This document shows positions 1 to 56,687 of a stretch of DNA of 64,000 nt, piece after piece. Under the pieces are notes generated by a model. The model saw nothing but the letters and a program-made list of their open reading frames with translations. It did no database searches and was not told where the DNA came from. Position 1 is the stretch's first letter; the number at the start of each line of letters is the position of its first letter. Source of the stretch: Massalongia carnosa (lineage: Eukaryota); contig OZ287075.1 in NCBI GenBank assembly GCA_965645245.1, forward strand, positions 310,001 to 374,000, in the 5' to 3' direction. The position numbers and the translations under genes are program-made.

Positions 1-113
1 AGAAGAAAGCCTAAATCATTGACACTGCTTCAATCCTCTCAGCAGTAAGCCTTCTTCATATCAGTCTGAATAAACCGGACCTTGATGAATTAAGTTTCCA
101 GGGTCCTCCTCTT

Positions 114-3100
114 GTGGAAAAGACATTGATTGTTTCAGCATCCACTGTTCAAAGCAGTGTCCCACAGGCCAACCCACAACCTTTCAAAAGTCAACCGATA
201 GACTTCCCCGATCATGAGTCTATGCAAGCCGGTTCTTCATATCAACACAATTCTGCACATATTCATGAGGAGCAAAAGCAGACTCAGAGCTCAGAACCAA
301 TAGCAATGACGCATAAGAAGAGAACCATAGAGAATCTCGATAAAATTCAATCATCGTCTAATCAAGTTCCTGAACAACACGTTCAAGACAATTTCCCAGC
401 CGATATAGAGACGGCATTCGATCAAAATAGTGATTATGAGCGGGAAACTGATGAAGAGTTTCAAAAGGTTAATACTCGACCTACTTCAATCGCTGATACA
501 TCGGTCTTTGCTGTCGGCTTAATTTCTTCAAATGCTATCATGACATTATCATCCAATCAACTCGCGGAATTTGATATAGAAAGCACAGACACCGCTGAGT
601 CTTTCAACGAGTTTGCCCCTTCTGCTTCTGAAAGCACGATTGATGATGATATCCGGGTGCCCTCCCGCCCAGTACGAGGAGAAATATCGGATTTCTGCTT
701 GGCTCTTGGTCTCTGGTGTGATAAAGAAGGCATCAAGCGACGCACCTATGATGGCCTGCTCGAAGTTTTGCAACTGTTAGACATTCATGAAGTGCGAAAT
801 TTGCCAAAGCGACTATCAACTTTGCACTCCTGGTGCCGTAAGCGCCTTCCCCTTCCATCCATTCAGAAGGCAGCGATATCAGTACGACGAGAAAAACAAC
901 CCACCGGAACACCAAGACCGGCTCAAGCGAACGTCTATTACTTTGATACTCGAACTGTCATCAGTATCTTACTTTCAGCCACGACTCAACGAAACATTCA
1001 TATCGGTATGGCAGAGATCGTTGATAGTCCTTCGGAATACTGGCACTCAAACAGTTGGGGTTCTTCTATTCGCACATGTTCCACTGATTTTGCGAGATTT
1101 CCCGATTCATCCCCTATTTTCCCCTCTGAAATTGTGCAGTATCGCTGTGGCAATGATAAATGTGGAATTATTCATGATAGTCACTGCGGACAGGTCATAT
1201 TTTTTGGACGTGATCAAAGATCGCGATCTCTGACCCTAGGTCAAACTCTTGTCAGGGTTCGTCCTTTGATAAGTAGAAAGAACGTCGACGAATATTCAGT
1301 TCCAGTCACGTTTGACTGGCCCGAAGATCAGTTGCTTTTGATAGAAGACGCGGATCAAGATGTCTTATCCGAGCATGTTCTAGCTCGCCGTTTCGATGTT
1401 GCAGTTTGTAGGGATGATCAGTTACGGTCTACAACGCTGTCTTAATTCGTCAGATATTCAACGTCACGCGAGGAGATCTTAGATCAATCAATCTTTCGTC
1501 ACCGATTCGAGCGGAATTAGAATTGGAGGTCTTTGGTCGAGAGTACCTAATCTCACAGCTAATTAAAGGAGTTCAGTCATATCCTCTAGTCATTTTCATC
1601 GACGATTTCGGGTTATATCGAAACATGTATCGTTCCATCACAGGTGTTTATGCCATGCCAGCAGGCTTGCCCGCCTCGGAACGTCAAAAGAGTTTTAATG
1701 CTTACACCATTGCTCTTGGCCCGCACGGATCCGAGTTTAACGATGTGATGAACTGTCTTCATACCAGTTTGGGAAACATGGATCGTGGTTGCATTCTTGA
1801 AATCAATGGACAGAAACAAGCGGCTTGGGCCCCGATTCTAGCATATCTTGGTGATATGAAGCAGCAGCAAGTCTCCGGAGGGTTTCTTGGGCCTCGTACC
1901 AACTATTGTTGTCGCTTTTGTGATGCGGGCCTTCATAATCGAGGAGATTTGCAGCGGGATATTCTACTTCATGGTCGTTATGATCATGAGGTGTTGGCTA
2001 TACGAAAAAAAGCCTAGCATAAAAGGAAAGACAAAGAGACTGGCATATCATATCTTACACGAAATGGGCTCAAATCCGAATCTTGTGCGCTTCAGACATT
2101 AACCCGGGCGCTTGATCTTATCATGAGTTGTCCACCGGATCCGGCTCATAGCGAGTATTACGGACTGGTACGAAGATTGTACCCTCTTCTTTACACGAAA
2201 ATACTCACGAAACGGGCCGCTGAAGAGTTTACAGCTGCCTTGCACTGTTTTCCGTTTCCACCTGCCTGGGGTCGAATACAGTCTCCGGCTATACATATGG
2301 CCTCATGAAGTATGAGCGAATGCGCTCGTGCCTCAGTCGTAATACCTCTACTTCTTCGCTGTTGGTTAAGAAACCATCATGTACGACAGCCTTTTCGAAA
2401 TGGATTAAAAATCCAGTTTCCTAAAGAATGTCGCCATTGCGCTTCAGATGAAGATTTGATAGTGTTTTGCTTTGGGAAACTCGCATGGAGTAACACGTTA
2501 ATCTCGTCTTTTGAGTTATCCCTTAAAGATCGTCAAGAATTTCACAGTCAAATCATCAATGCTCGACAATATTTTTAGGGCTGATGAATGCAGCACAAAA
2601 TCCAAAAGGACAAGGAAAGAAGAAAGACAACGAGAAAAGTGATTTTGTCACTGAAGAGTTGTCTTCCAGTTCTAGACGAGCATCGATTTCTGAAACATCC
2701 ATAAACTTCCTTGATGGTGACACGGACACTCCATTTGAAGAGGCGTCCGTTGATAATCTTGCATCAGATACCAACATGGGACTTTCTGCATCAATGACTG
2801 CTCGGAATGGCGAGGCCAATAAGCTGCCAAACTTTCATATCGGTATGCATTTCGAAAGAGTCATGCAGGAGTATGGTGTTCTGTGGAACGTTAATGTACT
2901 CTTTGGAGAAGACAAACATCGCTTTTTTAAGCAAGCTGTATTGTCAACAAATCATCGAAAGCCAGAGCGACAGCTTTTAGTGAAAGCCGCTATCCTCTTC
3001 ACTGTTGTCGCTCTTTTGAATGGCTCGTTTCGTCATACCGATCTGGAGATCACTCTGCAAATGATTCGTTTGAAGCGGAACTGCCCGGCTCTTCTTGAGA

Positions 3101-3750
3101 GTCTATTATTCCACGGGGATCGCTCACAAACAGACGATCAGGAGTCGACAAATACTTCTCTATTAGAATCTCCCTCATATCCAAAACCTGCAGTGCGGGG
3201 AAAGCTCAAACCTTCCTATGCACAAAATCAAGGTCTTCCTATCAGAATAACCAACTCTACAGAGCTCCGATTTAGGCAACTGATGCAGACTGCTATGATC
3301 GAGTATGGCCTTAACTGCGTCTAATGGGGAAACAAGCCTTTGTACTGGTATGAAAAATGCTCCTTTACTGTCAGGTCAACCGGCAAACCTTTCTCATTGC
3401 ATATTGGCGACTTTCTTCGAATCCGCTCTGGCACATATGCTCAGCTTCGACAAATTTATACTCACTGTCTACCATTTGAGGATATTCACCGAGTGTTCCT
3501 TTGGATTCGACTGCTAGAGACCGCTTCCTATAAAGACGAGGTCCTAAATTTAAGCATCTTTCAACTGATAAACACGGATAGAATAATCCCGTTATTCTTT
3601 GTTGATCCAGATAAGATCTACATTGTTCCTATCAATCGTACACTCAATGAGCCAGTATCCTCACATACTATGCCGACCATAAGTTCAAGCAGTAACAAAG
3701 AATCAGACATGGATTTGTTACATTGTACATGGGGAATCAACTTTTTGTAA
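114..3750 (+). pseudogene. Disrupted CACTA/EnSpm-Plavaka-like DDE transposase (5' end may lie upstream of the window)
   Basis: Consecutive + ORFs (114-1445, 1523-2017, 2123-2308, 2312-2578, 2584-3324, 3340-3750) join into one protein with motifs in CMC/Plavaka order: IFIDDFG; LGDMKQQQ..G..G...YCCRFC; PDPAH; PNFHIGMHF..MQEYG......FGEDKHRFFK; then a C-terminal beta-rich (BAH-like) segment. Breaks: frameshifts near 1440, 2015, 2090 and 2578; TGA at 2306-2308; TAA at 3322-3324. Confidence 0.7.
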
Positions 3751-4092
3751 GAAAAATCGTCATGACGACTGAACTGATGTCGCGTGAATTTAGGACAACA
3801 CTTTCGCTACTAGCCTCAAACATCATGTTGATCTTCATTTCACTTTATCTACCCTTTTTCATCTTTACCTTTTTATCCATCTTTACCTTTTTTCTCATCT
3901 TTATCTTTCTTCCCATCCGTCATTGATTTGTTCTTTCAATCCTATTGCTCATTCCTTCTTAATCTGAGTACTACTATCGATCTCTTCTCGATCATCAGTT
4001 CTTAAACTGGTATGATCGTCTGACTTGATTTTGAGATACAACCTCATCTCACATTGCATTATCACAGATTTCAGCCTCTACTTATCCGCATC

Positions 4093-7000
4093 ATGGAAGA
4101 AAATGTTTATTCCTCATAATATCTTCATCTAAAGCTTTTAACTTACCTTTTTTCAGGCGATCCCGATCACGCCTAGAAAAACGAGGAGAGCGGTAAAGAA
4201 GGATATAGATAAAAAGATGACAAATGAGATCTTGGACACTCATGCCAAGTTTTTCAAGAATGAACCAAAGACAGCCGCTTATTTAGGATACAGCGATGTC
4301 GCCGAATATAGGAAGTTTCGGTTCAGGAGTGTTGTACTGGAATGGTATATTCCATATCATCAAACTGCCAACAGAGAAGTGTCAAAACTTCTCTGGCGCT
4401 TCTTCGAGATCTTCCTGACCTGTCAGATGCTTTTCCAGCTGACTTAGGTCAGCTTCTTTCAAAATATCCTATTACAGATCAGGATGATAGGGCCAACAGG
4501 CGTCAAAACAATGATAGCAGGGACTATCTATATGCCGCCATACTTTTTCGACTCGCAGAAGCCATTGATGAGGTTTCGTCTACTGGATCTTATGATGTTG
4601 AAAGACACAGAGTGGCTTCAAACCGATTTGAAAAAATTATAAGTTTGAACATACCAAATATCAAGATTCCCGCGTTCAACGACACTGTCATACAGTATCC
4701 TAAACTGGGTCCCTTGCAAAATTTCAAAGAAGACGAGTTAGAAAGGTATAGCCGAACCAACTCAATTTTGAAGTCTCTGCAATGTGTCCTCGCGGCAACA
4801 AAGTGGAGGGAAACATTCGTCAATTCAACGCAACGCTCGGAAATGCTTCTATATCATGAAAACTTTGATATTTTTACCGAAGAAGGTCTGCTACGCTGGC
4901 AACATCATGTACTGGACAAAGTCTGCGGTCAGATGCCGAAGGCTTTGAAGGATAATAGTATCTTGAAGCTTAATAAAAAGGTGCGAGAAGAGCTACAACA
5001 AGCTCAAACTGATAGCGAGACCGCGCTTCTCTCAGCTGAGGTATTTATTCAATCTCATATCAGTTTGAAGTTGTCTCTAACATGTCTTGAAAAGCCCGAT
5101 TCCGTTCATGATCTCAAACGATATTTCGACATTCAAAACGCCTTTACAGGCAGCGCAGCACAGACCGGTCCACCTATTGCTATCTGCAAGATAATACTCG
5201 GCATGAAGTTCATTTCGAAGCACGGTCAAGCACAGCTGCTTGACAGAAGTGTTTGTACCCTCATCGGAGACTGCAAAGTCTCCTTTCTTGACAGTCAAAT
5301 AAATGGAGCAGTTTTCATGCTACAGCGATCATGTGGGAGAATACCTATCGACTCGGAACGCGTCAATGATCCCGAACTGGCCAAGGCAGCAAAAAAACTA
5401 GAGAGTATTCAAACATTTTGTGGAATAGTTGTTGACACAATGGGGTTTGGAAAAACCTATACAGCATTACTCTTTCTGGCGTATTACGCGCGATGCATGA
5501 CAGAGAGAGACGTGAACATCATAGCTGCGCATCGACCGGCACTCTGCATTGCTCCGAGTGGAATTGTCTTGCATCAATGGCAAGAAGAAATTATACAGTT
5601 CCCAACCCTTACACTAGTAATCGCACATGGAGACAGACCTATTAACGCTAATTTTGCTATCAATTGGGTTTCAGCAACAGCAATGCGTGAAGCTCCTAGA
5701 AAGCTGACGAATTGGCCTCCTCATTTGCGGTACATTTTTTATCAAAGCAATCCAACCGCTTCACAGGTCGTAATACTTTCGTCTTACGATACTTTTGCGA
5801 GCCGAACTCTTTCTGTACATACGAAATTGAGCAAAAGTGGAAGAGAAAAGAAAACCTTTAATTCTAAATGGACCGGAGTATATATGGACCAGTTCTTTTA
5901 GATGAGGGCCACACATTGCGACATCCTGACACCAAGATCTTTGCCAGTATCAAGCAGCTCGAGGCTGAGGTACACTGGTTTTTGACCGCTACACCCGTCA
6001 TCAACGATTCATTGGTAATGTTTTCATATTGATATGAAAAGGGCTGATGATCTCTAACGAGTCTGTTAGGACATACTCGGACCTTTATTAATCTTATGGC
6101 CACGGGTAAAACAAGACATACTGATGAATCTGACTTCGAGTGAATGGCTGATGCAGCACGCGGCGGAGTCCTATCATAGCTTTGAAGCGATTCAGTCGTT
6201 GTCCGAAACGGATTCTAAACGACGTATCGTCATGGATCCTAAGAGGCATGCACAATTGAATCTCGACCTCTTTTTCGTCATTTATTAACTGTCATACAGA
6301 ATCGAAGCTTTGTTGCTCACTCAAGATGTGCAGCTTATTGCAAAACATTATCACTACATGGACGAGCTGATAATGATTCGCCGCTCCACTGCCTCCATCC
6401 TGAAGGTCAATGATCATGAAACTGTTTCTATGCGCTCCATGATCCTAAGCCACGAAGTTAGAACCGTTGAGCTCACTTATCAAGAAGAAAAAGCAGCGGA
6501 GTCCCAATGTGTACATAGAGCTCACGCTCGGTTAGCTTATTCTTCATATCGATATGAATCTGAGAAGCAAATAAAAGCTAATGTATGGATGCAGGGAATT
6601 TGTTCTAGCCATAAAAGATTGGAAGGGCAAGAAGACGGAGAAGCCACAAATTACAGCTATCAAGAAAGCTGGAGCCGATAATTTTCCACACATCATAGCA
6701 CCATTACGACATTTAACTCTCGCCAGTGCCTCCCTTCTTCTCAGTAGACTCGACCGCATGCTTCGAAAAATAGGCCATAACACCTTGGTCAACGATATCA
6801 ACCGATTTCGAGCAAAAGGCGTGACTGCTCATCATATCATTAATCTTGTGAAACGAGAAGGAGACTCTGATGTTACTACTGGTTCGGAAAAACTCAAATT
6901 TCTGACCTACGGTTCTCCCACCATGAAGTCCATACTATATCAAATTCATACTTATGTATTACCTCATATCGTTACGGAAAAGCCACGGAAGCTATTGATT

Positions 7001-8545
7001 ACAGAAGATGTAGCACTCAAGGCCTTTTTCTGGGATAGCGTGTGTAATTTTGCATACGTGGAGACCGAAGTGTTACACGCTGGATTGACGGATTTAGAGC
7101 GCGTGAATCTTGTTAAAAGATTCAGCGATCCTAAAGATTCCTTACTGATTTTGATAATAATGTATCAGGTGTCGGCACAAGGAGTAAATCTGGATAGATG
7201 TTGTTGTCGGGTTTTAGTGGCAACGCCAGCAATCAATACACCGTCAGAAATTCAAGCTTGGTCTCGAGTAATCCGGGTATGTTATCTGAAAAGAGCGTGA
7301 CCTTTCTTCGTACCGATACGAAAGTCTAATCGTTGCATTTTCATGCAGGTTTCTCAAACCGAACCCGTGTTGGTTGTTCGAGTTGTAACAAAGAATTCTC
7401 ATGATCAATATCGAGACTCCAAGCAAACAGACAAGGCCGTGGTGGACTTAGCCACTCGATCCTTCTCGTCAGAGGTGCAGAACCTACTAGTTGACTTGTT
7501 AAATGAGTCAAACAAATACGTAAAAGAGGCACACGAGAGTCAGAGAGGACACGAGATTCTGAAAGGAAAAGAATTTTCTTCCCACAGAGGATTCAAATAA
7601 CTCGATGAATGTCGAGTTTGACGAGGAGACCGGCGGTAGATTAGCTATCACGGTGCAAGATCCATTGGATCTTGATCTCGATACAGTCACGAATCCTACA
7701 CGCCGAAAACGTCTGAGACCTGACAGATTCGCGGATACAATGCTGCAAGATGATGTTTATCAAGAGTATGGTCAAGGTAAGCGCCGTAAGTTGAAGGGCA
7801 AAGCATCCATGAATGAAGATGTGGACGAAGAATTTTCAGCTCAGTTTGAGGAAGACTCGTCATTTAAGGACAGTGAGAACGAAGAGGAGAAGGATGACGA
7901 GGAATCCGAGGTGACATCGGATGATAGTGATGATGCTTTTCAAAGTGATGGAGACGGAGATGAGATAACTGCCTTGAAAGATATTGTTTTGGAGACGACA
8001 ACGACCAAGAAGTTGAGACAAAATTACAGCAAACTAACTTCCATCGAGCAGGAGCAATACAATCAAGATGAAATGAACTTACGATACTTGTTGAGCTTGT
8101 CACCGACAAGAATCTACACTGTCGAGGACTTGGACCACATCGAAGTACTTGATCGAGCGTTGAGGCTGCTCTTTCATGCTCGGTTCGGTCAAGATCAGCA
8201 ATATATGAGGATTAGTCCTCACGTCACTTACGATAAATTACCAAGCAAAGTGTCAAATGCCATCAAAGCCAAATTACGGGTGGAGGAACAACATGTCAAG
8301 CAATGTTTGAGCATACTCAATGCTGCTAGAGTTTTGTAAGAGTTCTTCCCATTCTGCTGACGATGATGATGCAACTACAGCTAACAGACGATAGAGAACC
8401 TAGAGTCATGCCAAAGCAGGCTTTATTGGAGAAGGCCGTTTCCGAGAAGGACGCCTCCGAGAAGGACGCCCCCGAGAAGGCAGTCTTAGAAGTCTCCTCT
8501 GGAATCTCCTCAGGCGAGAAGGGTTTGTCAGGTCAGAACAGCTGA
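4093..8545 (+). pseudogene. Disrupted SNF2-family (SF2) ATPase/helicase with an acidic C-terminal region
   Basis: Motif I VVDTMGFGKT; Ia CIAPSGIVLHQWQEEI; SSYDTF; motif II LLDEGH (DEGH at 5901-5912, reached through a frameshift near 5880); motif III WFLTATPVIN; motifs V/VI SAQGVNL...EIQAWSRVIR. Likely ATG at 4093 followed by an intron. Several introns, another frameshift near 4380. The 3' end is uncertain (8339 or 8545). Confidence 0.8.
8429..8488 (+). repeat. Four imperfect 15-bp tandem repeats (EKAVS/EKDAS/EKDAP/EKAVL)
   Basis: gagaaggccgtttcc, gagaaggacgcctcc, gagaaggacgccccc, gagaaggcagtctta read directly. Confidence 0.85.
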
Positions 8546-9561
8546 GTTTTGCTGACACTCTCCATCATAAATGGTGATTGATCTCTCGCATTCAAACTTG
8601 GATGAAAGGACCGAGACTAATTTATTTGTTGCGTTAGGCTACCCTATCTTCTACATAGGCACTTGGTACGTTATGTTCTCTGTGCATATTGCAATTCAAG
8701 CTAACAGTCTTATTCTTCAGATCCTCAAGGCACGTCTCTTGTCTGCCTTGTTTCATCAGTTTCATACATGTTGTGAGAGGAGGTACGGGAAGGACTCGAT
8801 GGAGTGATTCAAGACTAGATCGTGCGAGACAGCAACGAGAACGAGAAACATGGCATGAGGATGATAACATTCATAGAGCTGTAGATTAGAAGCTGTCACT
8901 AAATCAATAACTTGTTTCTCTAACCATCAACTGGGCGAATACAACTCAGCTGTAACGAGGTTGCATGAACGTGATATCTCTTTTATAAGATTGTTTTCTG
9001 ATCGTTTTATCCGGAACACGATCTTGAAGGTCTTGAGATCTTGCCAAAACTGAGACGATCTCCAAATCATTGCCAGATGCTTTTTTACTGCAAGCACTGT
9101 TCATACCAATATGAATGTTCACTAAGATATATCCTCTTCAAGACTATAATATTTTCAAAATGATTTCAGACTCTATATTATCCGCAGATATTTCTCATCA
9201 GACACAAGCAGAATTTTAAGCTATCTTACACGTGTAGGACAATGTTGAGTCATCTCAATCAGGAAAGCGCTCAAAAAAACATTCAAACCGGGAACCTGCC
9301 GGTGTACCCATTTTAGCGAAGACATGTCCGGGATCTTGAGACTATTCCATGACCATGTCCGAAAACCCCCAACCGCCCTTAAGGTAATCTGTCGTTTCAA
9401 GTTCCTGATCATTTATCCTTTCGCTTTCTTGAAGTTGGCACATTTTACCTTCTAGATATCCCGATCAAGATTTTTACCGCAGGTTTGATCTCATCATCGA
9501 CTCAAAGGCTCACGCCTGGAGGGTTATGGAATATTGGCACTATTTTCAAAGATTAGCGATT

Positions 9562-10796
9562 CTACTGATGGTTGAAATGATATCCATATGCTAACATTCT
9601 GTATACAACCATCGGATAATACTCTAGCATGAGAGGAGGCTTCTCTTTTCTAGTGACCTCGAAATGGGTAGGAAACTGCGCAACTCTTTCATGGACTCGC
9701 TGTAGGTTCGTGGTAGTGTATCGTGGCCTGGAAAATATTATGTAAATCAATGCTACCCAATTTCCGTCACGCCGTAGGAGCAAGTACTCGCTGTTGAACT
9801 CAGCCACACATCCCGGGATATGCACACGAAATATCCAGCTTCTCGGAGAATTTTCATGGAAATTGCAATAAGACCCAGGTCACCGCTGGAAGACAGCAAG
9901 CCCAGCGCGGAGAAACTATCATTAGTGCTAGCTCGAAGTCGCGACTCCCACACACTCAATCAATCTTTTCATCCGCTTGGTATGTATGCCTTGATACTTT
10001 GAAATTTTGATGATGTATGAGCAGGCGATGGATCAGCCATGAGTCATCCTAGTTATTACGCCTCCTGAGCATGTAATTTCGTTTCTTCCAAGCGGAATTA
10101 AAGCAATACGGGGCAGAATAAGCCATGGTAGAAAGAAGCATACTTTGCATTAATTTTTGTATCAGATCGTAGTGAACTCACTGGCCCAAAGGGTGCAACA
10201 CCACTAACATCAAGCATTTTGATGCCGTGAGGGATTTCCTCTAAGGGAATTTGTGCAACTCGAAATTGAGCTTGTACCTCCGTACTCCTTGGGGATTGGT
10301 TGGGGAGAACCCAAGTAATCCGATCAAGGTTAACGATCCACTTTTGTGCCTTTGCATGCAAGGCGACTAAATGAGAGCGAGCTTATTTCTCTTCGAAGTT
10401 CTTGTCGCAGGTGGATGCCAAAGACCTGAACCAGGGCTTTACTACTCTATATTCTGTACATCAATTCGCATTAGGTACGGAGTACAGAGTACATTGAGGT
10501 TCAGACTTTGCGTTCGCATCATTTGGAAAGATTGTTCATTGGACTACAAGGCACGTCGGGTATGGCCGAGGAGTACTCGATACATCCGCATCAAATGGGG
10601 AGAAGGAGTTTAACGGTAACTTCGTGCGGAGACCAGCATTTTTGAATGTATAGGTTGATGCGATCATTAGCCGTTCATTCATTCCTTTCGCAGCATCAGC
10701 CTTGGCGAAAGAGATGAGTTGTGCATCGTACGATGCAAACTCGAATGGATGAAATCTAGGGGTGTCATGCAAGTCGTCCAGTAAGGAATCATCCAA
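9562..10796 (-). CDS. Possible multi-exon hypothetical gene or gene relic
   Basis: Three protein-like minus-strand ORFs (10536-10796, 10098-10361, 9562-9825); no motif recognised and splicing not resolved. Confidence 0.3.
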
Positions 10797-11688
10797 AGTG
10801 GGTTAACCTCACGGGTGGCTTGAACCCGGGTATGTTCGTGCTCGATGCCGTGACCATCTCCTTATCCATCCGTTCTTTTTGGTGCATTGCTCTGAATGTC
10901 AATCTCCTAGCCTCATGCAGTCTAAGCTCTCTTTTATGATGGCTTTGGGTCGCTTCCGACTGGCGCGTCTAGGAAAACCCGCATAAAAGAAAAAAAGAAA
11001 CAACGAAAGCAATCCTTCTATTTCGGCCACCAAACTTAGATAGGCTGGTTTGTTGTTTTTCTGTTTTCTGTTATTCTTCATTATATATTTTTAAAATATC
11101 AAGAAACTCCTTTGAATCAACAGACTTTGACTAGGAGCAAGTCTTACAGGGGATAGACCACGAAATAATTACATATGGGGACCATCCATGGCTCGTTACC
11201 GACCGCCTATCCTCTACTGACATGCATAACTATGCAGGTCAGGGACAGGCCCTCAGTAGTTTTTTGCGCAGAATTCGAGTCATCTTGCTTTCTTGTCTTG
11301 AGGGTGTAAACGGAATTACCACTTTGGAAAACTGAAGGTGTTCAGCCAAATGATGAAGTTTACAAATCTGCACGAGATTATGCAGCCCGAGTCGCCCGAC
11401 ATGGGAAGCACAGCTTTGGTTGACCCTCGAACCCCTTCACCTCTGGAGATGGCAGATACGTGCAGGTGTTACAAAGATCAGCTACCGATATGATGCATTA
11501 GATGCGGGACCGATGAACTCTGATATATGTAGTGCTAAAGCACGGACAGGTCTCGATGTCTGACGTCTTTGGCCTAACAATGGTATGTTCTCCTCAGAAT
11601 CCTAATCGAACTCCAAGCATCGTTCATTGCTATCACGGGTAGGGGCAGCTAGCTGCTCTGGTGTTTCTCTTCCTCCTGGATAGCGACC

Positions 11689-12998
11689 ATGACGTTGTTC
11701 CACCGAACAGCCAACCGGATCGAAAAAAATGGACAAATACAGCCTCTCGTTGTTGCAGTGGTCTTTCCTGCCCTCGCGACTGTTGCAATCGCTTTGCGGC
11801 TGATATCGAAACGAATGATCAAGGCCAGTCTTAGCATGGACGACTATATGATTCTTGCCGCTTTGGTACAATGTGATATCAGATCCTCTAGATGGTATCG
11901 GCGTTGATTGCTTCATAGTTTTTCATCTACTCGTTAATGGCCTGCAATATACTAGGTAAGCCCAATTTCGCCATGGAAATTAGGTGAGATCTGATTACAT
12001 AGGTGTTGTTGTTGGCGGTGTCGGGCTTCATCTGATGGATCTCCCAGATCGGAATCAGATTGTAATATTCTCCAAGGTCAGCGTGGTCCCCGAGACTTTT
12101 CTGCATTACATCGGTTATCAGAATCTCAACTAACTCGAATCCAGACATTAGTGGCTGTCCAACTCTGCTGGACATTCTCCCTCATGTTTGTCAAGTTCTC
12201 CCTGCTTTTCTTCTACATTCGAATTTTCAGCATTCGGTCGTTTCGAGTCAGCGCCTACGTCGTCATGGGCATCGTCTCGTGCTGGGCAGCGAGCGTGGTT
12301 CTCGAAACATTTCTCCTCTGCCGCCCCTTTAAATCTAACTGGGAATTTACCATCCATCATGTCTGCGGGAACAGAATCGCCAGTTACATAGCAGCGGGCG
12401 GGCTGAATCTGGTCACGGACCTGATGGTTCTCTCTCTCCCGGTGCCCAAGGTCTGGTCGCTACAGATCCCCCGAAGAAACAAAGTGATCCTACTCGGCGT
12501 TTTCGGGGTCGGGTTGTTGTAAGAATTAAGACCCGCTCTCTCATCCCCCATTGGCACTAACCCCCTTGCAGCGTCTGCGTGATCAGCATCCTCCGCCTCG
12601 TCTCCCTCCTCACCCTCACCTACGCCGACATTACCTTTTCCGTTCCCACGGCTCTCCTCTGGTCCATGCTCGAGCCCTGCATCGGCTGCACCTGTGCCTG
12701 CATCCCCCTCATGCGGCCCGTCTTCGGCGCCATCTTCCCTGACCGCCTCAGCAAGGCGCGCAAGTCCTACGGCTACATCCCCGAGCGCAAACAGGCCTCG
12801 GCCCGCTCCGACTCCTACCCGCTCACCAGCCGCACCGCCGCCTCCGCCAACGAGATCAGCATCCATGGCGGAAAAGGCGACGAGAGCAGGAGGGATTCGA
12901 TGGGGGCCGCGGGCGCTGCGGAGACGAGGGAGGAGCTGAGCGAGAGGGCGTTGGAAGGCATTAGCGTCAAGAAGGAGTTTCGCATCCAGCATTGCTGA
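11689..12998 (+). CDS. Pth11-like (fungal rhodopsin-domain) multi-pass membrane protein, no CFEM domain
   Basis: Five exons splice in frame. Motifs: VAIALRLISKR..SMDDYMIL, VKFSLLFFYIRIF, FLLCRPF...W, NLVTDLMVLSLPVPKVWSLQ, SILRL, WSMLEPCIGCTCACIPLMRP. Confidence 0.9.
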
Positions 12999-13354
12999 GA
13001 AGGCCTGGGTGGTTGGGTTGGAGTAGCCATCGAGCCCGTGGCTATGGGGTTTTCTACAAAAGCAAAAGGTAGCCTGAGTAGCGAGCGATCACCTCCGGGC
13101 GTCTAGAGGTACCGGTGTTAATACATAGGGGGCTAGCGCCGATAATTATATAACTCACAATCTGCTTAATCACGAACGACGTTTATGAATTCTTCCAATC
13201 CCCGAACCACATTGGTAGCCTTGGTACCACACGTTCCTCGTTGTTCCCTAGCACGGTCGTTTCGTTCTTTCGTTTGTCTGCATACTTTATCGTCATGGTT
13301 TTGGTTGATACGAGACCCGCGCCACTTTTTACTAAGTAAGCTTTTCTTCCTGGG

Positions 13355-13384
<30 letters not shown>
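13355..13384 (+). repeat. (TATG)n microsatellite
   Basis: About 7 tandem tatg units. Confidence 0.9.
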
Positions 13385-13385
<1 letters not shown>

Positions 13386-14505
13386 TTATCCATGATTGAT
13401 CATCCTATCCCATTCCACTCAAACTCTAACTCACCGTTTGGTTTTATGAGGTTTTCTCGGCAGGTATTAGATTAGATAGATAGGTAGGTACTCGCTCCTC
13501 ATCACGTCTCCGCTTCATTCTTACCCGTATCCTACCGCTTTTCGTTCACGTTTTATCTTATCTTACCTTACGCGGTACCTTAATCCTCTTTCTCTAGTAC
13601 GTTACATTACGTTACCTGCCCGCCAACCTAGGTAATAGTTACATAACCACTCCCAAAAAGCGACGTCAGCTTTCCCGAACTGTGAAACCCCGAAGACGGA
13701 AAACCTTCCAGCTTAGCCACCTCATACATAGTTAGCTGGGGGGGAAGGGGGGAAAGAGCGGGTGTATCTATCTATTTATCTATTTAGCTTTTTACCGAAC
13801 GAAATAGTGGAAGAAAGGAAGGAAGGAATGAATGAACGAAAGGGTTCTAGATAAGGGGGTAGATGGTGTTTAGTTTTCCCGCGAGTTGGTAGTATGTTGA
13901 GGCAGTTACAAAGTTAGTAATTAATAAGTAGGGAAGGATAAATACGTACAGTAAGGCTATATGTCTGGCAAAATGCCGAGTAAAAGAAACGACTAGAGAG
14001 GGGCGGTGAGATGCTAGTTTTCAAACCCCCCCCCAAAAAGCCCACTTAGGTATGGAGTAACTTAGGAGCCGGGCTTTTAAAAGGGGACAATAACAAAATC
14101 CAGGCTCCATCTTTCCCTCCCTCGAAGCCCCATTTTTTGGTTTTTTGGTTTTAAGAAAAGGAAAAAAACGCCTACTTCTCTAGATGGGAGTCGGAAGTTT
14201 CTGGTGCTGAGGGAAGGGGCTTTTTAGCTGAAGTCGGAGCCGGTGGAACAACGGTGGGGAGGGGTGATAGATCTCAATAGCTGAAGATTGGATTGGATTG
14301 GATTGGTGGATGGCTTTGCTGCTTTATGGTGCCTTGCTTGCTCCTCAAATTAAACCTAGAAGAGTTCCATACCGATGTCCTCTGCAGCCTCCTGAGCGGT
14401 GCCGTCTTCACCGTTCACCTTCCCATTGGCGTCCTCGTCGCCGATATCCCTCAGCCCCGCCCTCCCCCCCCCCCCCCCCCCGTTATATTTGCCAGGACAC
14501 GAACT

Positions 14506-15407
14506 CTACACTCGTAGTAGCAACACGGGTACAGCAAGCTTTCGCCTTCTCCTCCCCGCTTTCAGGAATGCCATCTCCCGCATCTGGTCCCGCCGGTGTT
14601 CGAAGATGTACCCGAAGAGGAACTTCGCTCTTGCTACGGGGGAGACCGTCATGAGCAAATGGCGGAACGACTCGCCGTGGCCGTTGAGCCCGTAGTAACG
14701 GATGTAATCTACCCCAGTGGTGTAGGCTTCGCTACCACAAAACTCCAGGAAAGCGTGGCAGAGCTCGTGCAGAAGGGTGCTTAACACACAAATGCGACGT
14801 TCCTCGGCCGAAATCGTGCTTTTATGCTCAGGGTAGGGGTTGGGATCAACCTTGATGCTAGCCTTGTGGAAGCGGCAGTGATATTCACAGCGTGATTTAG
14901 AGAGGGTGTACCCGTAACAACCTTCTTGGACAGCGTCGGCCCACTCGATCTCAACCCTTGGCTGAATTTGAAGGTTACCATCAAAGAAGTGATCACCGAA
15001 AACCATGGCGTATCCCTATAACCCATCCAGGTGAGATTCCTCTAATAACCAATCCATACTATTCTTGAGACGATATGCTCTTTGATTGCAACCCTCAGTA
15101 ATTCGTAACAATCATGTCTGGTCCGGTTCATATGCTGGAAAACCTGCTGTACAAGGTTGGGATACTAGAGGGTGCATGGCGGAGGTGGGGGATCCGATAG
15201 ATATGTACACCGAACTGGCATGATGCCTGCATTCAGGAAGAGTTGAAAAACTAATGCGGAGGATTCTGAGCCAGAGCATTGGCCCGGTCTCATCATACAC
15301 ATGTAGGGACCCCTAAAGGCTCGTGGTTTCCCGAGCGTTTCCTTGAACGCGTAGTAAATTTTAGAGGTTAGGATCGGAGAGGGGAGTTCAAGGGGTGCTT
15401 GAACCAT
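14506..15407 (-). CDS. SprT-like zinc metalloprotease domain protein (5' exon structure uncertain)
   Basis: FGDHFFDGNL...VEIEW...G.T...STLLHELCHAFLE...GHGESF matches the SprT pattern (HExxH followed by HG..F). Upstream ATG candidate at 15407. Confidence 0.65.
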
Positions 15408-17512
15408 GTTTCTGCAGGAGAAACTGCATGCTAGAGTTCAGCGATGAGCGGAGAGTCCTTGACTGTCCAGGCGCTCCTCGGAAGTGGGTTTAGGAGAGAG
15501 AGGAAGCTGATGCTTGCAATTGGCTGATATTGAAGGGAAATTTGAAAGCCGAAGCCGAGGATAGTCTATGAAGAAGATGAAGTGATCTGGCCAGCAGAAG
15601 AGGGCAAAATGGCTTAAAGGGCGAGGGATAGAAAGCCTGAAGCCAAGAGATGTGACGATGAGAAAAAATCAAAATATTCAAGCTCTATATATGGATAATC
15701 CAGAGAACTAGTCTTCGGACAGTTACAAAGCGATGAAACTCCAGGGTCCCTGACACAGACAAATCAATGGAGGGTAAGAGGCATCCAGCTAATAGACTGA
15801 ATAAGAAGCATAAATGAACATACGGTGAGAAATAGCAAAGGCATGGTGACGTCCTTTCGCTCTTTGGAATAATGATATGCATCACTCTGAATGAGCTAAG
15901 ACTGAACCAGCGGAAAGTTGCAGCTTCTAGAAGAAAAACCGAGCCGAGACAGCTCAGGAAAGCAGTGTCTCAGGTTTATTTTCCAAGTTGAACGTCCTCC
16001 CGGAAACGAGATAAAGAGAGATATGCCTAGACCAAAGGCTCTGGACGAAAGCTAGTGCGAAAAAGAAGCCTTAGCACAGGCAACCCCATCAACGATCCAT
16101 TTCCGAATGAAGACAAAAACTCCCAAGTCTAGGTTTTGATGGGGCTGAGCGACTCTGGGACATGTACCTATTCTTCGATAGTAGGAGAAATACATCCCGT
16201 TTGAGGTCTAAAAGATCCCGACGAAGTCTCAAGCCTGCTCTTGGTCTTGAAAGTCGCATGGTAAGTGTATCAAGCACATGCCTAGATCAATGGAACCATT
16301 TTTCGAAGAAGACAAATCCATAAAGGGAAGTTTCAGTGTGAAAGAGCAGCTCTGAAACAGACTTGCAGCTAATTTGCGGCGACCAAATAGGTCTATGAAA
16401 ACACATAGTAAATCATCATTCAATGTACATCTACATAAGTCGAATTTCAGGTGTAAGCTCAGTAAAGGAAGTGGAATTGGATTTCCTCACCGATACTTCC
16501 AGAAAGCATAGTTCAAGGTAAAGCAGACCCATAGAGTATTATGGTATGGCGTATTTGGCCTCGCAGTCTCAACCCTGGTAGGAATGGGAATGGAGATAAA
16601 AATGATTAAAAAATGGTTCAGTTCTTCTGCCGGTATGTAAATATGTTCCAGGAATATCACGGGATTTGCGTGAGCTAATCAATTCAGGGGTGCATATAAC
16701 GAACCAAGGGGCATAAACATTCCATCAGCCTCCCTAAGAAATCCAAACATTCGTTCCCCCCTAAAAGCTTACTTACCCACAAAGAAATAAGGCTGAAGAA
16801 GCCTCATTAGAACACACTCCTGTATTCCGCAAATAAGATTCTATTCATGATATCTAGACAGTTCTTCCACTGGACCACAATCGGCGATAGGGGCAACGTC
16901 TTGGCTCGATCCATTGGTGATAAAATGCGAGTTCAGAGGTTCATCGGCGACTGCCGACATGAAGATGATGACTCCTATTCTACTGTAAATATCCGTATGA
17001 TAATTTCGCGCCGATATGCGTGGCAAGTTCTGCTTGTGCGGCGATTCTGATACCGATTATCATCTGCTCTAGCTCAGTTGATGTTGATGTCCCAATTATG
17101 TCATGTAGCTTTCTGCTCAAGAGCACAATAATTTGAGGTGCGGTGTTGTTCCTGTGGTCCCCCTTGATGTAAAGATCTTCATGCCCTGAACAATGCCCTT
17201 GACTGAGGCAACACCTTGCCAAGACCGAGTGGATGGAACAAAGTCTTCAATACTTATGAGGTCTTAATCCTGACCTTACTCGATGGAATTCGAGACTCCA
17301 AAACAGTGTGCACGTTGAGGGATGAAGCGAAATTGGCCATCGTCTCCGGAATGCTACAGCGGAAGTGTACAAGAACCCTTCGTTCACACCCTGCGACAAC
17401 TCCAAAGCCCATACCACTTCATTGCCGAACGAACTGATCCATAATCCTTTAAACATAGCGCAGAAAGCTATTACGTTGGGAATCTTCGTCCATCCATTCC
17501 TCACCCGCGGAA

Positions 17513-29518: not shown

Positions 29519-31388
<1,870 letters not shown>

Positions 31389-38687: not shown

Positions 38688-39527
38688 TTCTTTATTGTTT
38701 CTTTCTTACTTAACTTGCTTCCTTGGATTAGCGGATCGGGATAGATGAAGGAGATTGGGGGATTTAGATAGGTATGAGAGACTTTTGGATCTGGCTAAAA
38801 GGCTGTGGGAGTGGGAATCGATGGTGGGATGGGATGGGATGGGATGAATGGTAATGGTGGTGATGAAGATGGTTTTGGGGGGGGACATTGCTCTACATAT
38901 ATATTGACGGTTTCCTTTTTTCTATCCTCCCTTTCTCTCTCTCTATCTCTCTCTCTACCTAGCTACAGTATCCACGTGCCTAGCTGCCCAGTTTGCCTAA
39001 CCTGCCTACCTACCTACCTGCCTGTCCGCTTGTGTTTCCTCCCATCATCGTCATCATCACGAGTGCGGCCTTTTCTCCTTTCCCGGGCTTATTTAAGTTT
39101 GCGTTTGCGTTTGCGTTTGCGTCTCTCTCTCACACACATACACTCTCGCTTATAGCACAGGCCGCTTTTACACGGGATGGGATGGGATGGAATGAAGTAA
39201 GTGGGTAGGTGGGTGCCTGAGTGATGATTACTTTTCTTTCTCCGTTTTCTCTTCTCTGTTGATTGATTGATTGGTTGCTCCGTAGTTGATTGTTTGTTAT
39301 ATGGGGAGGGTCGAACGGGGGTGAATGAGAGGAAGGGTGAATGGAAGGTCATGACCGACTAGCTGATGGATTAATTAACTCTTCTTGGGAGTTTGAAGAT
39401 CTAATCAATCGGCGGTTTTTTCATCTGTTCGTTCGTTCATTTGCCATCCATCCATCCATCCATATCCCTGCAGCCTTTTTTTTGCTATTTGCAATCCCCC
39501 ATCTCCCATCACCCATTTTTCATACTA

Positions 39528-41547
39528 CAGTCAGATCGGGTTATAAGAAACTCCAAAATCGTAGCACCTAGGTTTCTTATTAAGCGAGGTTTCTAATATC
39601 AAAATTCTTGGCATATTTTCAAGACTATACCTATCGACTACCTAATGGCAAAGAAATCCGTCATTACAACTTGCCTACAGCTAATCGCCATTGAGGTCTT
39701 GATATCCCACTCTTTACGATTCAGACGACGTATCAAATCATCGTCACCGACCTCTCGTTGCTCCTCATATAACCGTAACGTTTCAAGAGCTCGTAGAGCG
39801 TCCTTGTTTTGAACACGTGATACAATGACCTTCTCCTCCTCCGTCTCGTATTCTCTTTCATGGCCATCATATATAGCAACGATGTGATCCTCCAAATCCT
39901 CTTCGGTATCCTCTACCACCTCTTCAACAGGGTTCAGAAACTCGTCAATACGCATGACGCTTTGTATATGATCACGGTCTTTCAAACGCCGTATTGTAGC
40001 TTGTATCTGTAGTCGTTGCTCCGTTTCTTGCTCTTGCGTCCGAGTCTCATTGAGATAGTCATATTTCTCTGCCTCTTCTCGAGTCATTGGCCCATGTTTT
40101 GTCCCGATTACACGAGATTTCAGTCAACAATTAGAGATAGTTAACTGAGTAACACAGTAATTCCAGGCGGCTACGCATCAACGTATTGCCATCAGTACGT
40201 TGATGGTTTTTAACGGCTCCCTATCTGTGTCGTATTCGGAGGTCATGTATTCTAGTCAGCGTTGTCTGTAATGAGCCTTGAAAGCGCCTATAATACCCTG
40301 ATCAGGCGGCTGGCATAAGCTGACAGCATTGACTGACAGAAATATAACGCTAACATGGGATAAACCACCTTCAGCAACTATGATATCCAAGCCGCTTTTG
40401 CTGAGCTGAAAAATTGTCAATTAACAATACAACCTGACGACTTACGTTGCCATTAAATCAGCGTAAATACTCCCGAAATATATCGCCCGACATCCAAGCT
40501 CTACTGTTACTGCGCCATATCATATGCAGGTTACAAGCGTGAACACCCTGTGAACCAAAAGCACGCGGATTTTTGACCGTCCCAATGAACCATATGAGAA
40601 GCTTGTAAGTTCCAGTAGCATTGCAACAGAAATTTGCAGTAATTCTCGCTTTTTCCACCTTGCCGCCTGGGAGCTGTTCCGTAGCTAATGTAGTACTGAG
40701 TGTAGCCTTTCAAAATAAGGCAGTTTCATCCATGTTGTAGATATCTTCCTGATCGTATGATAATAGCTGTACCCGTATTACTTCTAACTCTTCTTCAACC
40801 TCCACGCGCTTGACGGAATCGAGCTCGCCGTGTTGTTTATGTTTTGTAATCTTGTATCTTCTTTTGAAAGAATTCAGCCATCCAATAGAGAACCTGAAAG
40901 AGGATTGATTACGGTACAGAGGCAATCGTTTCCAAAATTTCAAGGCCATTTCTCTTAACAAATCGCCCGACAAAGGCGCTCTTTTGCGTTGCATGCGCTG
41001 TTGCCACTCAAATAAGGCCGTTTCTAATTCAGACCAATGTGCAGTTCGAATTTTCTTCAGATTCGGGCGTAGCAATGCGTGAGATGTATCCAGATGAGCC
41101 CATTTATGTGAGAGGATTTTGGAAACTTGTCCTTTGTCAATTTTATGACGGTAAAGATTGTCAAACCAAACGACCAGTTTTTCGTATTTCTTGTCATCTC
41201 CGGATACAGCAGGATCTTGGTAACGCTGTCGTAATGCTCGTCGTTGGTCGTCGATAAAGGCGTCACGCTTTTTTCTGCTTCTCTCTCTGGGAGAAAGCGG
41301 GGATGTAGAACGTTTTCGAGGATTTCGAGATAGAGTCTCCGGATTTTGACTATTATATCTCAAAGAAGTCCAAGGTTAAGTCATATTTACTATAAGAAAC
41401 CACCGCAAAATTTTTAGAAAAAGTTAAGAAACTTTCTAATAGAGCGAGGTTTCTTATCTCTCACCAGAAAAAAACCGGTCTTTTCGTCCGAGTTTCTTAC
41501 TAGCCGAGGTTTCTTAATCAGCAGTTTCTTATAACCCGATCTGACTG
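39528..41547 (-). mobile_element. pogo/Tigger-like (Tc1-mariner superfamily, CENP-B HTH + DDE_1) DNA transposon, full length, transposase dead
   Basis: Perfect 25-bp TIRs cagtcagatcgggttataagaaact (39528-39552 and 41523-41547), TA on both flanks, subterminal gaggtttct repeats. Motifs LE..LFEW, FSIGWLNSFKRRY, YNMDETALF, LLIDNF, CQP.DQGII. Five in-frame TGA stops and a frameshift. Confidence 0.95.
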
Positions 41548-56553: not shown

Positions 56554-56687
56554 GTTTGCATTTGCATTCACACAACCTCGGCCCTTTCTGCGCTGCCAAA
56601 GCTCAAGATAGCCCAGAGCGGTTTGCATTTGCATTCACACAACCTCGGCCCTTTCTGCGCTGCCAAAGCTCAAGATAGCCCAGAGCG
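56554..56687 (+). repeat. Perfect 67-bp tandem duplication
   Basis: 56554-56620 is identical to 56621-56687. Confidence 0.95.

What the first reader, a model, noticed from the sequence alone, without database searches (positions are those of the whole stretch)
114..8900. Candidate large DNA transposon pairing a CACTA/Plavaka-like transposase with a SNF2-family ATPase
Seen: a ~1,200-codon gene with motifs in CMC/Plavaka transposase order lies ~340 bp upstream of a co-oriented ~4.4-kb gene with SNF2 motifs I, Ia, II, III, V and VI. Both carry frameshifts, whereas the housekeeping genes in the window are intact. Known: some DNA transposons carry helicases (AcademH with RecQ-like, Helitrons with PIF1). 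I do not recall a fungal CMC-type element defined by SNF2 cargo. Inference: the two genes form one mobile unit over 8 kb, and the ATPase (divergent motif I DTMGFGKT, long D/E-rich tail) might remodel chromatin for transposition or counter silencing.
Basis: partly seen in the sequence, partly recalled or inferred. Interest (0 to 1): 0.8.

Follow-up and report, generated by a model that had tools for sequence, protein, structure and literature searches.

The report
Fungal transposon carrying an SNF2 ATPase
The first 9.4 kb of the window is a decayed copy of a many-copy jumping-gene element of a lichen fungus that carries, besides its RAG1-like cutting enzyme, its own chromatin-remodeller-type ATPase gene, a combination so far mentioned in print only in passing.

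Summary
Both genes are real. Window 222-3750(+) is a pseudogene of a ~1,180-aa DDE transposase. Its core folds like RAG1, and it is distantly related to Plavaka/EnSpm transposases. Window 4217-8339(+) is an SNF2-family ATPase gene with four spliceosomal introns.

Contigs from three public runs that hold this fungus cover window 1 to about 9386 at roughly 10-100 times the summed depth of the unique flank. This includes the spacer between the genes and a 1-kb tail. Other copies lack the window copy's frame breaks. One predicted protein from another copy joins transposase and SNF2 sequence. So the two genes belong to one dispersed repeat of at least 9.4 kb. Its left end lies off the window.

No TIRs or TSDs could be seen. 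Adjacency of the two genes in other species could not be tested. Among distant transposase relatives in metagenome contigs, 0 of 17 loci have the SNF2.

The idea is not new. A 2012 meeting report and a 2013 paper mention fungal En/Spm-derived "Entons" that encode an SNF2 helicase, but they were never described in full.

Verdict: a probable new member of that barely documented kind. The ATPase's role, whether helping transposition or countering silencing, is inferred only.

The parts
1..9386 (+). Part of one copy of a multi-copy element that lies in the window. The left end is off the window. The right end is at about 9386-9389.
   Evidence: Summed contig depth over 1-9078 versus 9613-14418 and 14953-16000 (the bin 14419-14952 holds a low-complexity spike): X1 17,122-95,623 versus 819-934; X2 269-796 versus 25-27; X3 28-105 versus 0.1-6.3. 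The unique unitig of X1 starts at 9360. Loose ends behind 9386 in X2 and X3 have discordant letters.
222..3750 (+). Pseudogene of a DDE transposase related to Plavaka/EnSpm, with no introns. The frame is open from 15 and the first ATG is at 222.
   Evidence: collinear with P0001, P0002 and P0003 (1,151-1,191 aa); the core is 59-64% identical.
1418..2578 (+). Catalytic core. D62, D146, C165-x2-C168 and D241/H244/E246 (numbered on this piece) are invariant or nearly invariant.
   Evidence: 60-sequence alignment. (pLDDT 91.5). (RAG1 6dbr_A E 5.2e-7, TMq 0.40-0.47; BbRAGL 6b40 E 2.6e-4).
1436..1436 (+). Frameshift in the transposase. Most other copies have one more base here.
   Evidence: table 4.
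2004..2044 (+). Scrambled stretch with three indels relative to other copies. It holds the stop TAG 2015-2017.
   Evidence: (table 4).
2306..2308 (+). In-frame TGA where relatives have W.
2571..2571 (+). Second frameshift in the transposase.
   Evidence: table 4.
3322..3324 (+). In-frame TAA. All contigs laid from X1, X2 and X3 read C at 3322.
   Evidence: (table 3).
3751..4216 (.). Spacer between the genes. It is as multi-copy as the genes and holds an 18-nt tandem repeat at 3855-3917.
   Evidence: bin 3739-4272: X1 58,978; X2 442; X2 contigs 3601-3938 and 3962-4754..
4217..8339 (+). SNF2-family ATPase gene, broken. About 1,287 codons remain after the introns are removed.
   Evidence: P0115 starts at 4217.
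4361..4361 (+). Frameshift in SNF2. Other copies have one more base, and P0115 reads straight through.
   Evidence: (table 4).
4825..4828 (+). Site where the window copy lacks about 230-300 codons that relatives and other copies have.
   Evidence: P0110, P0117, P0118, P0130, P0263. (loose ends before 4825 and behind 4828 in X1, X2 and X3).
5879..5880 (+). Two extra bases in a TA run, just before motif II (DEGH).
   Evidence: (table 4).
6015..6069 (+). Intron 1, 55 nt, GTAATG...CTAAC...TAG.
6246..6299 (+). Intron 2, 54 nt, GC-AG. It holds the stop 6286-6288.
6531..6594 (+). Intron 3, 64 nt.
7277..7348 (+). Intron 4, 72 nt, GTATGT...CAG. It holds the stop 7298-7300.
7562..7562 (+). Frameshift in SNF2. 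Other copies have one base fewer.
   Evidence: (table 4).
8340..9386 (.). 3' tail of the element. No protein relative was found. It has a 15-nt tandem repeat at 8429-8480 and intron-like signals.
   Evidence: depth as high as over the transposase.. (no relative aligns beyond 8351).

Best explanation
The window opens inside a decayed copy of a large cut-and-paste DNA transposon of a lichen-forming ascomycete. At least 9.4 kb of the element lies in the window.

The element encodes a roughly 1,180-aa DDE transposase. This enzyme belongs to the EnSpm/Plavaka/Transib/RAG1 group and presumably cuts and rejoins the element's ends. Downstream, on the same strand, the element carries its own intron-bearing SNF2-family ATPase of about 1,550 aa when whole. 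Its profile scores best against Rad5, it shows no RING or HIRAN domain, and it has a conserved N-terminal region of unknown fold.

Shown: both genes, the spacer and a 1-kb tail are repeated together, about ten to several tens of times, in this fungus. Other copies keep the reading frames that this copy has lost.

Inferred: the ATPase is an accessory protein of the element. It may use ATP-driven DNA translocation either to open chromatin at the element's ends or at target sites, or to counter heterochromatic silencing. The element is probably one of the fungal 'Entons' (En/Spm-derived, with SNF2) mentioned by Kapitonov, so more genes may lie upstream of the window.
For: Transposase:
- 109 relatives at E <= 1e-3; the best are 59-64% identical and intact.
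- D, D, CxxC and D-x2-H-x-E are conserved in 60 sequences.
- The model has pLDDT 91.5.
- Foldseek gives 44 PDB hits at E <= 1e-3, and every row shown down to rank 44 is RAG1 or BbRAGL.
- Pfam Plavaka gives weak hits in 7 of 33 relatives and is precomputed on 4 of 109.
- Atlas neighbours include Plavaka clusters.

SNF2:
- Pfam hits.
- The family profile scores best against Rad5 in the PDB (5.6e-33; next Rad26 at 8.9e-24).
- The SNF2 lobe of the model gives Z 17.1 to ALC1 (rmsd 2.9, 187 aligned) and Z 16.7 to Rad5 (rmsd 4.5, 212 aligned).

One unit:
- Depth is 10-100 times the flank over 1-9386, including the spacer, in three runs from three studies.
- Depth is high at both ends and lower over the SNF2 middle.
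- Deletion joints such as 4267>6478 appear in X2 and X3.
- Thousands of variant unitigs were laid (X1 3,857; X3 788; X2 284).
- Flanks behind 9386 are discordant (all).
- P0263, from another copy, joins transposase residues (window 3061-3249, 92% identical) to SNF2 residues.
- No inverted-repeat partner of the right end lies between the genes.

Other copies carry the bases that keep the frames open (tables 3-4; P0115).

Prior report of Entons with SNF2: passages in PMC3520738 and PMC3627910.
Against: - No terminal inverted repeats, target-site duplications or empty sites were seen. The left end is outside the window and no genome is held.
- The right end (...TTAAGGTA at 9386) shows none of the published Plavaka termini (ACA or TGATG). 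Its place is known only to a few bases.
- The window's own protein gives no Pfam hit even at E <= 10.
- Among distant transposase relatives in metagenome contigs (27-49% identity), 0 of 17 loci hold a relative of this SNF2.
- The hit lists of the two proteins share no contig length or species.
- None of 153 SNF2 relatives shows transposase similarity.
- So linkage outside this species is unproven.
- Summed contig depth is only a rough guide to copy number (the tool's own caution).
- Entons are said to encode five to six proteins; only two are seen here.
Confidence: 0.68

Rival explanations
1. Two separate repeats lie side by side: a Plavaka-like transposon and a different element or duplicated host segment that bears the SNF2. 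They abut in this and some other copies through nesting or a local duplication. The SNF2 is not a gene of the transposon.
For: - Depth over the SNF2 core (5341-6408) is about a half to a quarter of that over the transposase.
- 0 of 17 distant transposase loci carry the SNF2.
- No cross-species linkage was found.
- The SNF2 has four introns and the transposase has none, which hints at different origins.
Against: - The spacer and the 1-kb tail beyond the SNF2 are as deep as the transposase, giving a profile that is high at both ends and low in the middle.
- Joints that delete parts of the SNF2 fit internal-deletion derivatives of one element.
- No inverted-repeat partner of the right end lies in 3751-4300.
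- P0263 shows the same neighbourhood and orientation in another copy.
Confidence: 0.17
2. The block is cargo or a passenger inside a still larger mobile or duplicated unit, such as a giant Starship-like element or a segmental or subtelomeric repeat. It is copied by that unit rather than by the DDE transposase.
For: The repeat runs off the window's start. No termini were seen.
Against: - The right end has discordant flanks within a gene-bearing region.
- There are very many variant unitigs at 90-99% identity.
- Internal-deletion forms are typical of DNA transposon families.
Confidence: 0.1
3. The SNF2 is an ordinary single-copy host gene (a Rad5/Rad16/Ris1-type repair ATPase) that happens to lie next to a dead transposon.
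For: The profile scores best against Rad5.
Against: - Its DNA is about 10 times or more the flank depth in three runs.
- It carries three frameshifts and an internal deletion.
- None of 18 relatives scanned shows a RING or HIRAN domain.
- Near-identical paralogues form clusters of 6 and 18 members.
Confidence: 0.03

Closest known systems
[quoted passage not shown] Source: Kapitonov's 2012 talk, as reported in PMC3520738, and one sentence in PMC3627910. I read only those passages.
   Same: Fungal host, an En/Spm-group transposase, and an element-encoded SNF2 helicase in a large element.
   Different: Only two genes are seen here, because the rest of the element, if any, is off the window. The transposase is nearer to Plavaka than to Pfam's EnSpm models. 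No Enton sequence was available for comparison. 'Entons' occurs in no other relevant paper of the library.
Plavaka transposons (Pfam PF18759), within the CMCT clade of EnSpm, Mirage, Chapaev and Transib. Some carry a TET/JBP dioxygenase. Source: Kojima 2025, PMC12730594, passages read.
   Same: [quoted passage not shown]
   Different: Pfam similarity is weak (7 of 33 relatives, at most 27.1 bits; none for the window copy). The cargo is an SNF2 ATPase, not TET/JBP. The published termini (TGT..ACA, or CATCA..TGATG, with 2-3 bp TSDs) could not be checked and are not evident at the right end. The families described in that paper come from Basidiomycota.
RAG1 / Transib / ProtoRAG transposases (PDB 6dbr, 6b40).
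   Same: The best structural matches of the catalytic core (E 5e-7 to 2.6e-4).
   Different: Only 9-12% sequence identity and TM about 0.4. There is no RAG2-like partner. This is a similarity of fold class, not membership.
Rad5 / Rad16-type SNF2 ATPases (PDB 6l8n).
   Same: The best sequence-profile match (5.6e-33) and a long insert between the two helicase lobes.
   Different: No RING or HIRAN domain was found in 18 relatives. The N-terminal region of about 570 aa is different and conserved. The gene is multi-copy and sits in a transposon.
Other DNA transposons with a helicase or nuclease partner: Academ with RecQ, and P and piggyBac with a DEDDh nuclease, as listed in PMC3627910. Helitrons are recalled.
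   Same: A second, conserved nucleic-acid enzyme gene rides with the transposase.
   Different: A different transposase superfamily and a different helicase family.

Membership tests
CMCT-clade DNA transposon (EnSpm/Plavaka/Transib group) | RNase H-like DDE catalytic core | tested here: met
   The model has pLDDT 91.5. RAG1 and RAGL are the top Foldseek hits at E 5e-7 to 2.6e-4. D62, D146 and E246 are conserved in 60 sequences.
CMCT-clade DNA transposon (EnSpm/Plavaka/Transib group) | [quoted passage not shown] | tested here: inconclusive
   C165-x2-C168 is invariant. A conserved H at 189/190 follows, but I did not establish an H(3-4)H pair.
CMCT-clade DNA transposon (EnSpm/Plavaka/Transib group) | Terminal inverted repeats (mostly CA..TG) and 2-5 bp target-site duplications | not testable with these tools
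   The left end is off the window, no genome is held, and the right end is placed only at about 9386-9389.
CMCT-clade DNA transposon (EnSpm/Plavaka/Transib group) | Dispersed multi-copy family with deletion derivatives | tested here: met
   depth ratios, variant unitigs, joints and discordant right flanks.
Plavaka (Pfam PF18759) | Match to PF18759 at or above the gathering score (26.3 bits) | tested here: not met
   The window's pieces give 0 hits at E <= 10. Of 33 relatives, 7 hit weakly and 3 reach 26.3-27.1 bits. This is a distant relationship, not membership by Pfam's rule.
Enton (Kapitonov 2012) | Fungal element with an En/Spm-group transposase plus an SNF2 helicase | tested here: met
   The definition comes from the passages read.
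Enton (Kapitonov 2012) | Five to six conserved proteins | tested here: inconclusive
   Two genes are seen in 9.4 kb. The element runs off the window's start. No protein relative was found for the tail 8340-9386.
Enton (Kapitonov 2012) | Sequence similarity to reference Enton elements | not testable with these tools
   No Enton sequence is held in any library available here.
SNF2-family ATPase | SNF2 N-lobe and Helicase_C lobe with motifs I and II | tested here: met
   for the window; 15 of 18 relatives scanned have SNF2-rel_dom (the 3 without it were short, 572-647 aa, and matched only the family's N-terminal region). GFGKT and DEGH are seen. Structural Z is 15-17 to ALC1, SNF2h and Rad5.
Rad5/Rad16 subfamily | RING (and, for Rad5, HIRAN) domain | tested here: not met
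   No such Pfam hit at E <= 1e-3 in 18 relatives. Only the ATPase core scores best against Rad5.

The most novel reading that the evidence does not exclude
A lineage of Plavaka-related transposons in lichen-forming and other ascomycetes has taken an SNF2 remodeller, with its own conserved N-terminal module, as an obligatory second gene. The large, unnamed SNF2 family found here (454 clusters at E <= 1e-3, many of them multi-member or fragmentary) would then be largely transposon-borne. It would be a eukaryotic case of a transposon bringing its own chromatin motor to open donor or target chromatin, or to resist silencing.
Probability: 0.3. Interest if true: 0.7.

Novelty: new member of a known kind. 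Interest (0 to 1): 0.5.

Why it matters
Cut-and-paste transposons are usually thought to carry one or two genes. A transposon-encoded SNF2 motor would be a direct handle on how mobile DNA deals with chromatin, whether for access to its ends and targets or for escape from silencing.

The only trace of such elements in the searched literature is two sentences about 'Entons'. This locus offers a concrete sequence with intact relatives (P0001-P0003 for the transposase; P0110, P0113 and P0118 for the ATPase). From these, the family could be defined, its termini found and the ATPase tested.

It also flags a sizeable, uncharacterised fungal SNF2 family whose members may be annotated as host repair or remodelling genes.

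Tried and rejected
- Whole genome: none is held, so copies, termini, TSDs and empty sites could not be aligned.
- Earlier findings of this scan: nothing for this place or sequence. One unrelated Naegleria note came up.
- RNA: no RNA holder is listed, so nothing can be said on expression or splicing.
The smaller one found no relative among 55 pattern matches.
- Metagenome contigs with the transposase alignment: 17 loci, all distant at 27-49% identity, and 0 with the SNF2.
- Genome contigs: one chance 32-residue match in a Verrucomicrobia MAG.
- Viral contigs: none.
This is a weak negative, because the word-index lists are short.
- Fused gene models: none of 153 SNF2 relatives has transposase similarity. 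P0263, found later, is the one exception.
- RIP as the cause of the stops: rejected. TpA/ApT is 0.54-0.70 and (CpA+TpG)/(ApC+GpT) is 1.23-1.38 over 1-10 kb, like the rest of the window. Differences between copies are symmetric transitions.
- Inverted repeats within 1-9480 that pair with the right end: none.
- Second copy in the window: none.
- Fold of the SNF2 N-terminal region: the P0113 model (pLDDT 81.7) was searched whole, and only the SNF2 lobe (557-880) drew matches, so residues 1-400 remain untested.
- NCBIfam: only far sub-threshold bacterial SNF2 families.
- Atlas for the SNF2: generic SNF2 clusters only.
- SNF2 tree with Rad5/Rad16/Ris1 references: not built, because no reference sequences could be brought in. 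The PDB profile ranking stands in for it.
- Supplements of PMC12730594 (Plavaka termini figure, sequences): not opened.
Full report
**What is there**

The + strand of window 1-3750 holds one long reading frame broken into three frames: 15-1445, 1418-2578 and 2527-3750. It aligns collinearly, without gaps that could be introns, with intact proteins of 1,151-1,191 aa. P0001, for example, matches at window 438-1436, 1439-2581 and 2557-3744, and the core is 64% identical.

Breaks in this copy:
- frameshifts near 1436 and 2571;
- a scrambled stretch at 2004-2044 containing TAG 2015-2017;
- TGA 2306-2308, where relatives have tryptophan;
- TAA 3322-3324.

After a 466-bp spacer comes a second + strand gene at 4217-8339.
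- Pfam finds SNF2-rel_dom (E 2.7e-7) and a sub-threshold Helicase_C.
- Alignment with relatives and inspection of the sequence show four short introns with fungal splice and branch signals: 6015-6069, 6246-6299 (GC-AG), 6531-6594 and 7277-7348.
- These introns contain all the in-frame stops.
- Once they are removed and three frame changes (4361, 5879, 7562) are stepped over, eight segments totalling about 1,287 codons have no stop.
- The copy also lacks about 230-300 codons near 4825 that P0110, P0117, P0118, P0130 and P0263 all have.

**What the first protein is**

- Neither the window's pieces (0 Pfam hits even at E <= 10) nor its closest relatives match a Pfam family.
- 7 of 33 more distant relatives hit Plavaka PF18759 weakly (E 3e-6 to 6e-4; three reach the 26.3-bit cut-off).
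- 4 of the 109 relatives carry PF18759 precomputed.
- A 60-sequence alignment keeps D62, D146, C165-x2-C168 and D241/H244/E246.
- The AlphaFold model of the core is confident (pLDDT 91.5).
- Foldseek against the PDB returns RAG1 and the amphioxus RAG1-like transposase as all the rows shown down to rank 44 (E 5e-7 to 2.6e-4, TMq 0.29-0.47, most 0.33-0.47).
- Kojima (PMC12730594, passages read) describes exactly this. [quoted passage not shown]

So the refutation 'no RNase H/DDE fold' fails, and the transposase reading stands.

**What the second protein is**

A HMMER search of 1.84 billion representatives gives 454 relatives at E <= 1e-3 (243 at <= 1e-10, 59 at <= 1e-30). Many are short fragments.
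- 15 of 18 scanned have SNF2-rel_dom.
- None has a RING or HIRAN domain.
- One (P0117) has an N-terminal OTT_1508-type deaminase domain.
- A profile of 12 long members scores best against Rad5 in the PDB (5.6e-33; next Rad26 at 8.9e-24).
- The named relatives are all from lichen-forming Lecanoromycetes.
- A model of P0113 shows well-folded N-terminal domains (residues 1-400). The whole-model search matched only the SNF2 lobe, so their fold is untested.

**Are the two genes one unit?**

No genome is held, so I used public runs. Five runs share over half of the sampled words of 114-8900, and a sixth shares a small part. These six runs come from four studies. I laid contigs of four runs on window 1-16000 at 80% likeness.

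| Run | Summed depth, 1 to ~9078 | Summed depth, flank (9613-16000 without the spike bin 14419-14952) |
|---|---|---|
| X1 | 17,122-95,623 | 819-934 |
| X2 | 269-796 | 25-27 |
| X3 | 28-105 | 0.1-6.3 |

- The flank is covered by long, near-identical contigs, so these runs hold this fungus as DNA.
- The repeat is covered by 3,857 (X1), 284 (X2) and 788 (X3) short contigs at 90-99% identity.
- The spacer is as deep as the genes. In X2, contigs 3601-3938 and 3962-4754 tile from the transposase end into the SNF2 at about ten times flank depth.
- Depth is highest over the transposase and over the 3' tail (8011-9078), and lowest over the SNF2 middle.
- Joints such as 4267>6478 (X2, X3) show copies with internal deletions. 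This is the pattern of one element family with deletion derivatives.
- The unique unitig of X1 begins at 9360, which for 31-mers puts the last shared base near 9389.
- Loose ends behind 9386 in X2 and X3 read discordant letters. The right end is therefore at about 9386-9389 and the copies are dispersed.
- The repeat continues to the window's first base, so the left end is not in view.

Independently, P0263 comes from a 2.0-Mb contig and its 90% cluster has 18 members.
- Its residues 1-63 are transposase (window 3061-3249, 92% identical).
- Its residues 62-503 are SNF2, including the 272 residues that the window copy lacks.
- So another copy has the same neighbourhood and orientation.

Other copies also carry the bases that keep the frames open:
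- one more base at 1436, 2571 and 4361;
- two fewer at 5879;
- one fewer at 7562;
- C at 3322.
- P0115 reads straight through 4361.

**Evidence against, or missing**

- No TIR, TSD or empty site was seen. No inverted repeat inside 1-9480 pairs with the right end.
- The right end shows none of the published Plavaka termini.
- Linkage in other species is untested. The SNF2 query found nothing in metagenome, prokaryote-genome or viral contigs.
- The transposase query found 17 metagenome loci, all distant at 27-49% identity, and 0 of 17 hold this SNF2.
- The hit lists share no contig length, species or neighbouring locus tag.
- None of 153 SNF2 relatives has transposase similarity.
- The SNF2 is therefore not a general feature of the wider transposase family.
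- Summed contig depth is a rough proxy for copy number.
- The stops are not due to RIP.

**Comparison with what is known**

- A search for 'Plavaka' plus 'SNF2' found one paper, on a red alga, which I did not open.
[quoted passage not shown] - 'Entons' occurs in no other relevant paper of the library.
The present element is most simply a member of that group. If so, further genes may lie upstream of the window.
- The nearest described parallel is the carriage of TET/JBP dioxygenases by Plavaka, EnSpm and KDZ elements, which is read as escape from methylation-based silencing.

**Mechanism**

Shown:
- a DDE transposase of the RAG1/EnSpm fold class;
- an SNF2 ATPase with intact-looking motifs in relatives;
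- co-amplification of the two genes.

Inferred:
- the transposase excises and inserts the element;
- the ATPase acts as its accessory, either giving access to chromatinised ends or targets or countering silencing.

Nothing here tells these two roles apart.

**Verdict**

The novelty is modest, since this is a probable new member of a known but barely documented kind. Interest is 0.5.

Noticed in passing
window 39526-41549: An element of about 2 kb bounded by perfect 27-nt inverted repeats (39526-39552 and 41523-41549). It encodes a pogo/Tc5-type DNA-binding region (HTH_Tnp_Tc5 and HTH_ABP1_N in ORF 40710-41375, minus strand).
   Followed up: partly
window 42713-43837: An ORF with Tc1/mariner transposase domains (HTH_Tnp_Tc3_2 and DDE_3). 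It lies next to the pogo-like element, in a region of about 44% GC (39-44 kb).
   Followed up: no
protein P0117 (relative of the SNF2, 2,330 aa; not in the window): A relative of this SNF2 carries an N-terminal OTT_1508-type nucleic-acid deaminase domain (E 1.3e-8). It could be a real fusion of a deaminase with a transposon-linked remodeller, or a merged gene model.
   Followed up: no
window 4825-4828, in other copies: Contigs of X1, X2 and X3 leave the window sequence before 4825 and behind 4828, with the same loose letters in all three runs. This is the site where this copy lacks about 0.7-0.9 kb of SNF2 coding sequence.
   Followed up: partly
window 8336-8387 and 8668-8707: Two more stretches with intron-like signals (GTAAGA...GCTAACAG and GTACGT...GCTAACAG) lie in the element's 3' tail. 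The SNF2 gene may run on, or a small third gene may lie here. No protein relative aligns beyond 8351.
   Followed up: partly
window 14419-14952: A depth spike in all three runs (X3 7,975 against about 3) at a poly-C, low-complexity tract near 14448. It is probably low-complexity cross-matching.
   Followed up: no
window 56554-56687: A perfect tandem duplication of a 67-nt unit.
   Followed up: no
window 27715-63320: Host genes have long open frames and strong Pfam hits: phosphoglucomutase (30063-31388), oxysterol-binding protein, homoserine dehydrogenase, an RSN1/CSC1-type channel (45738-48617) and a UCH protease.
   Followed up: partly
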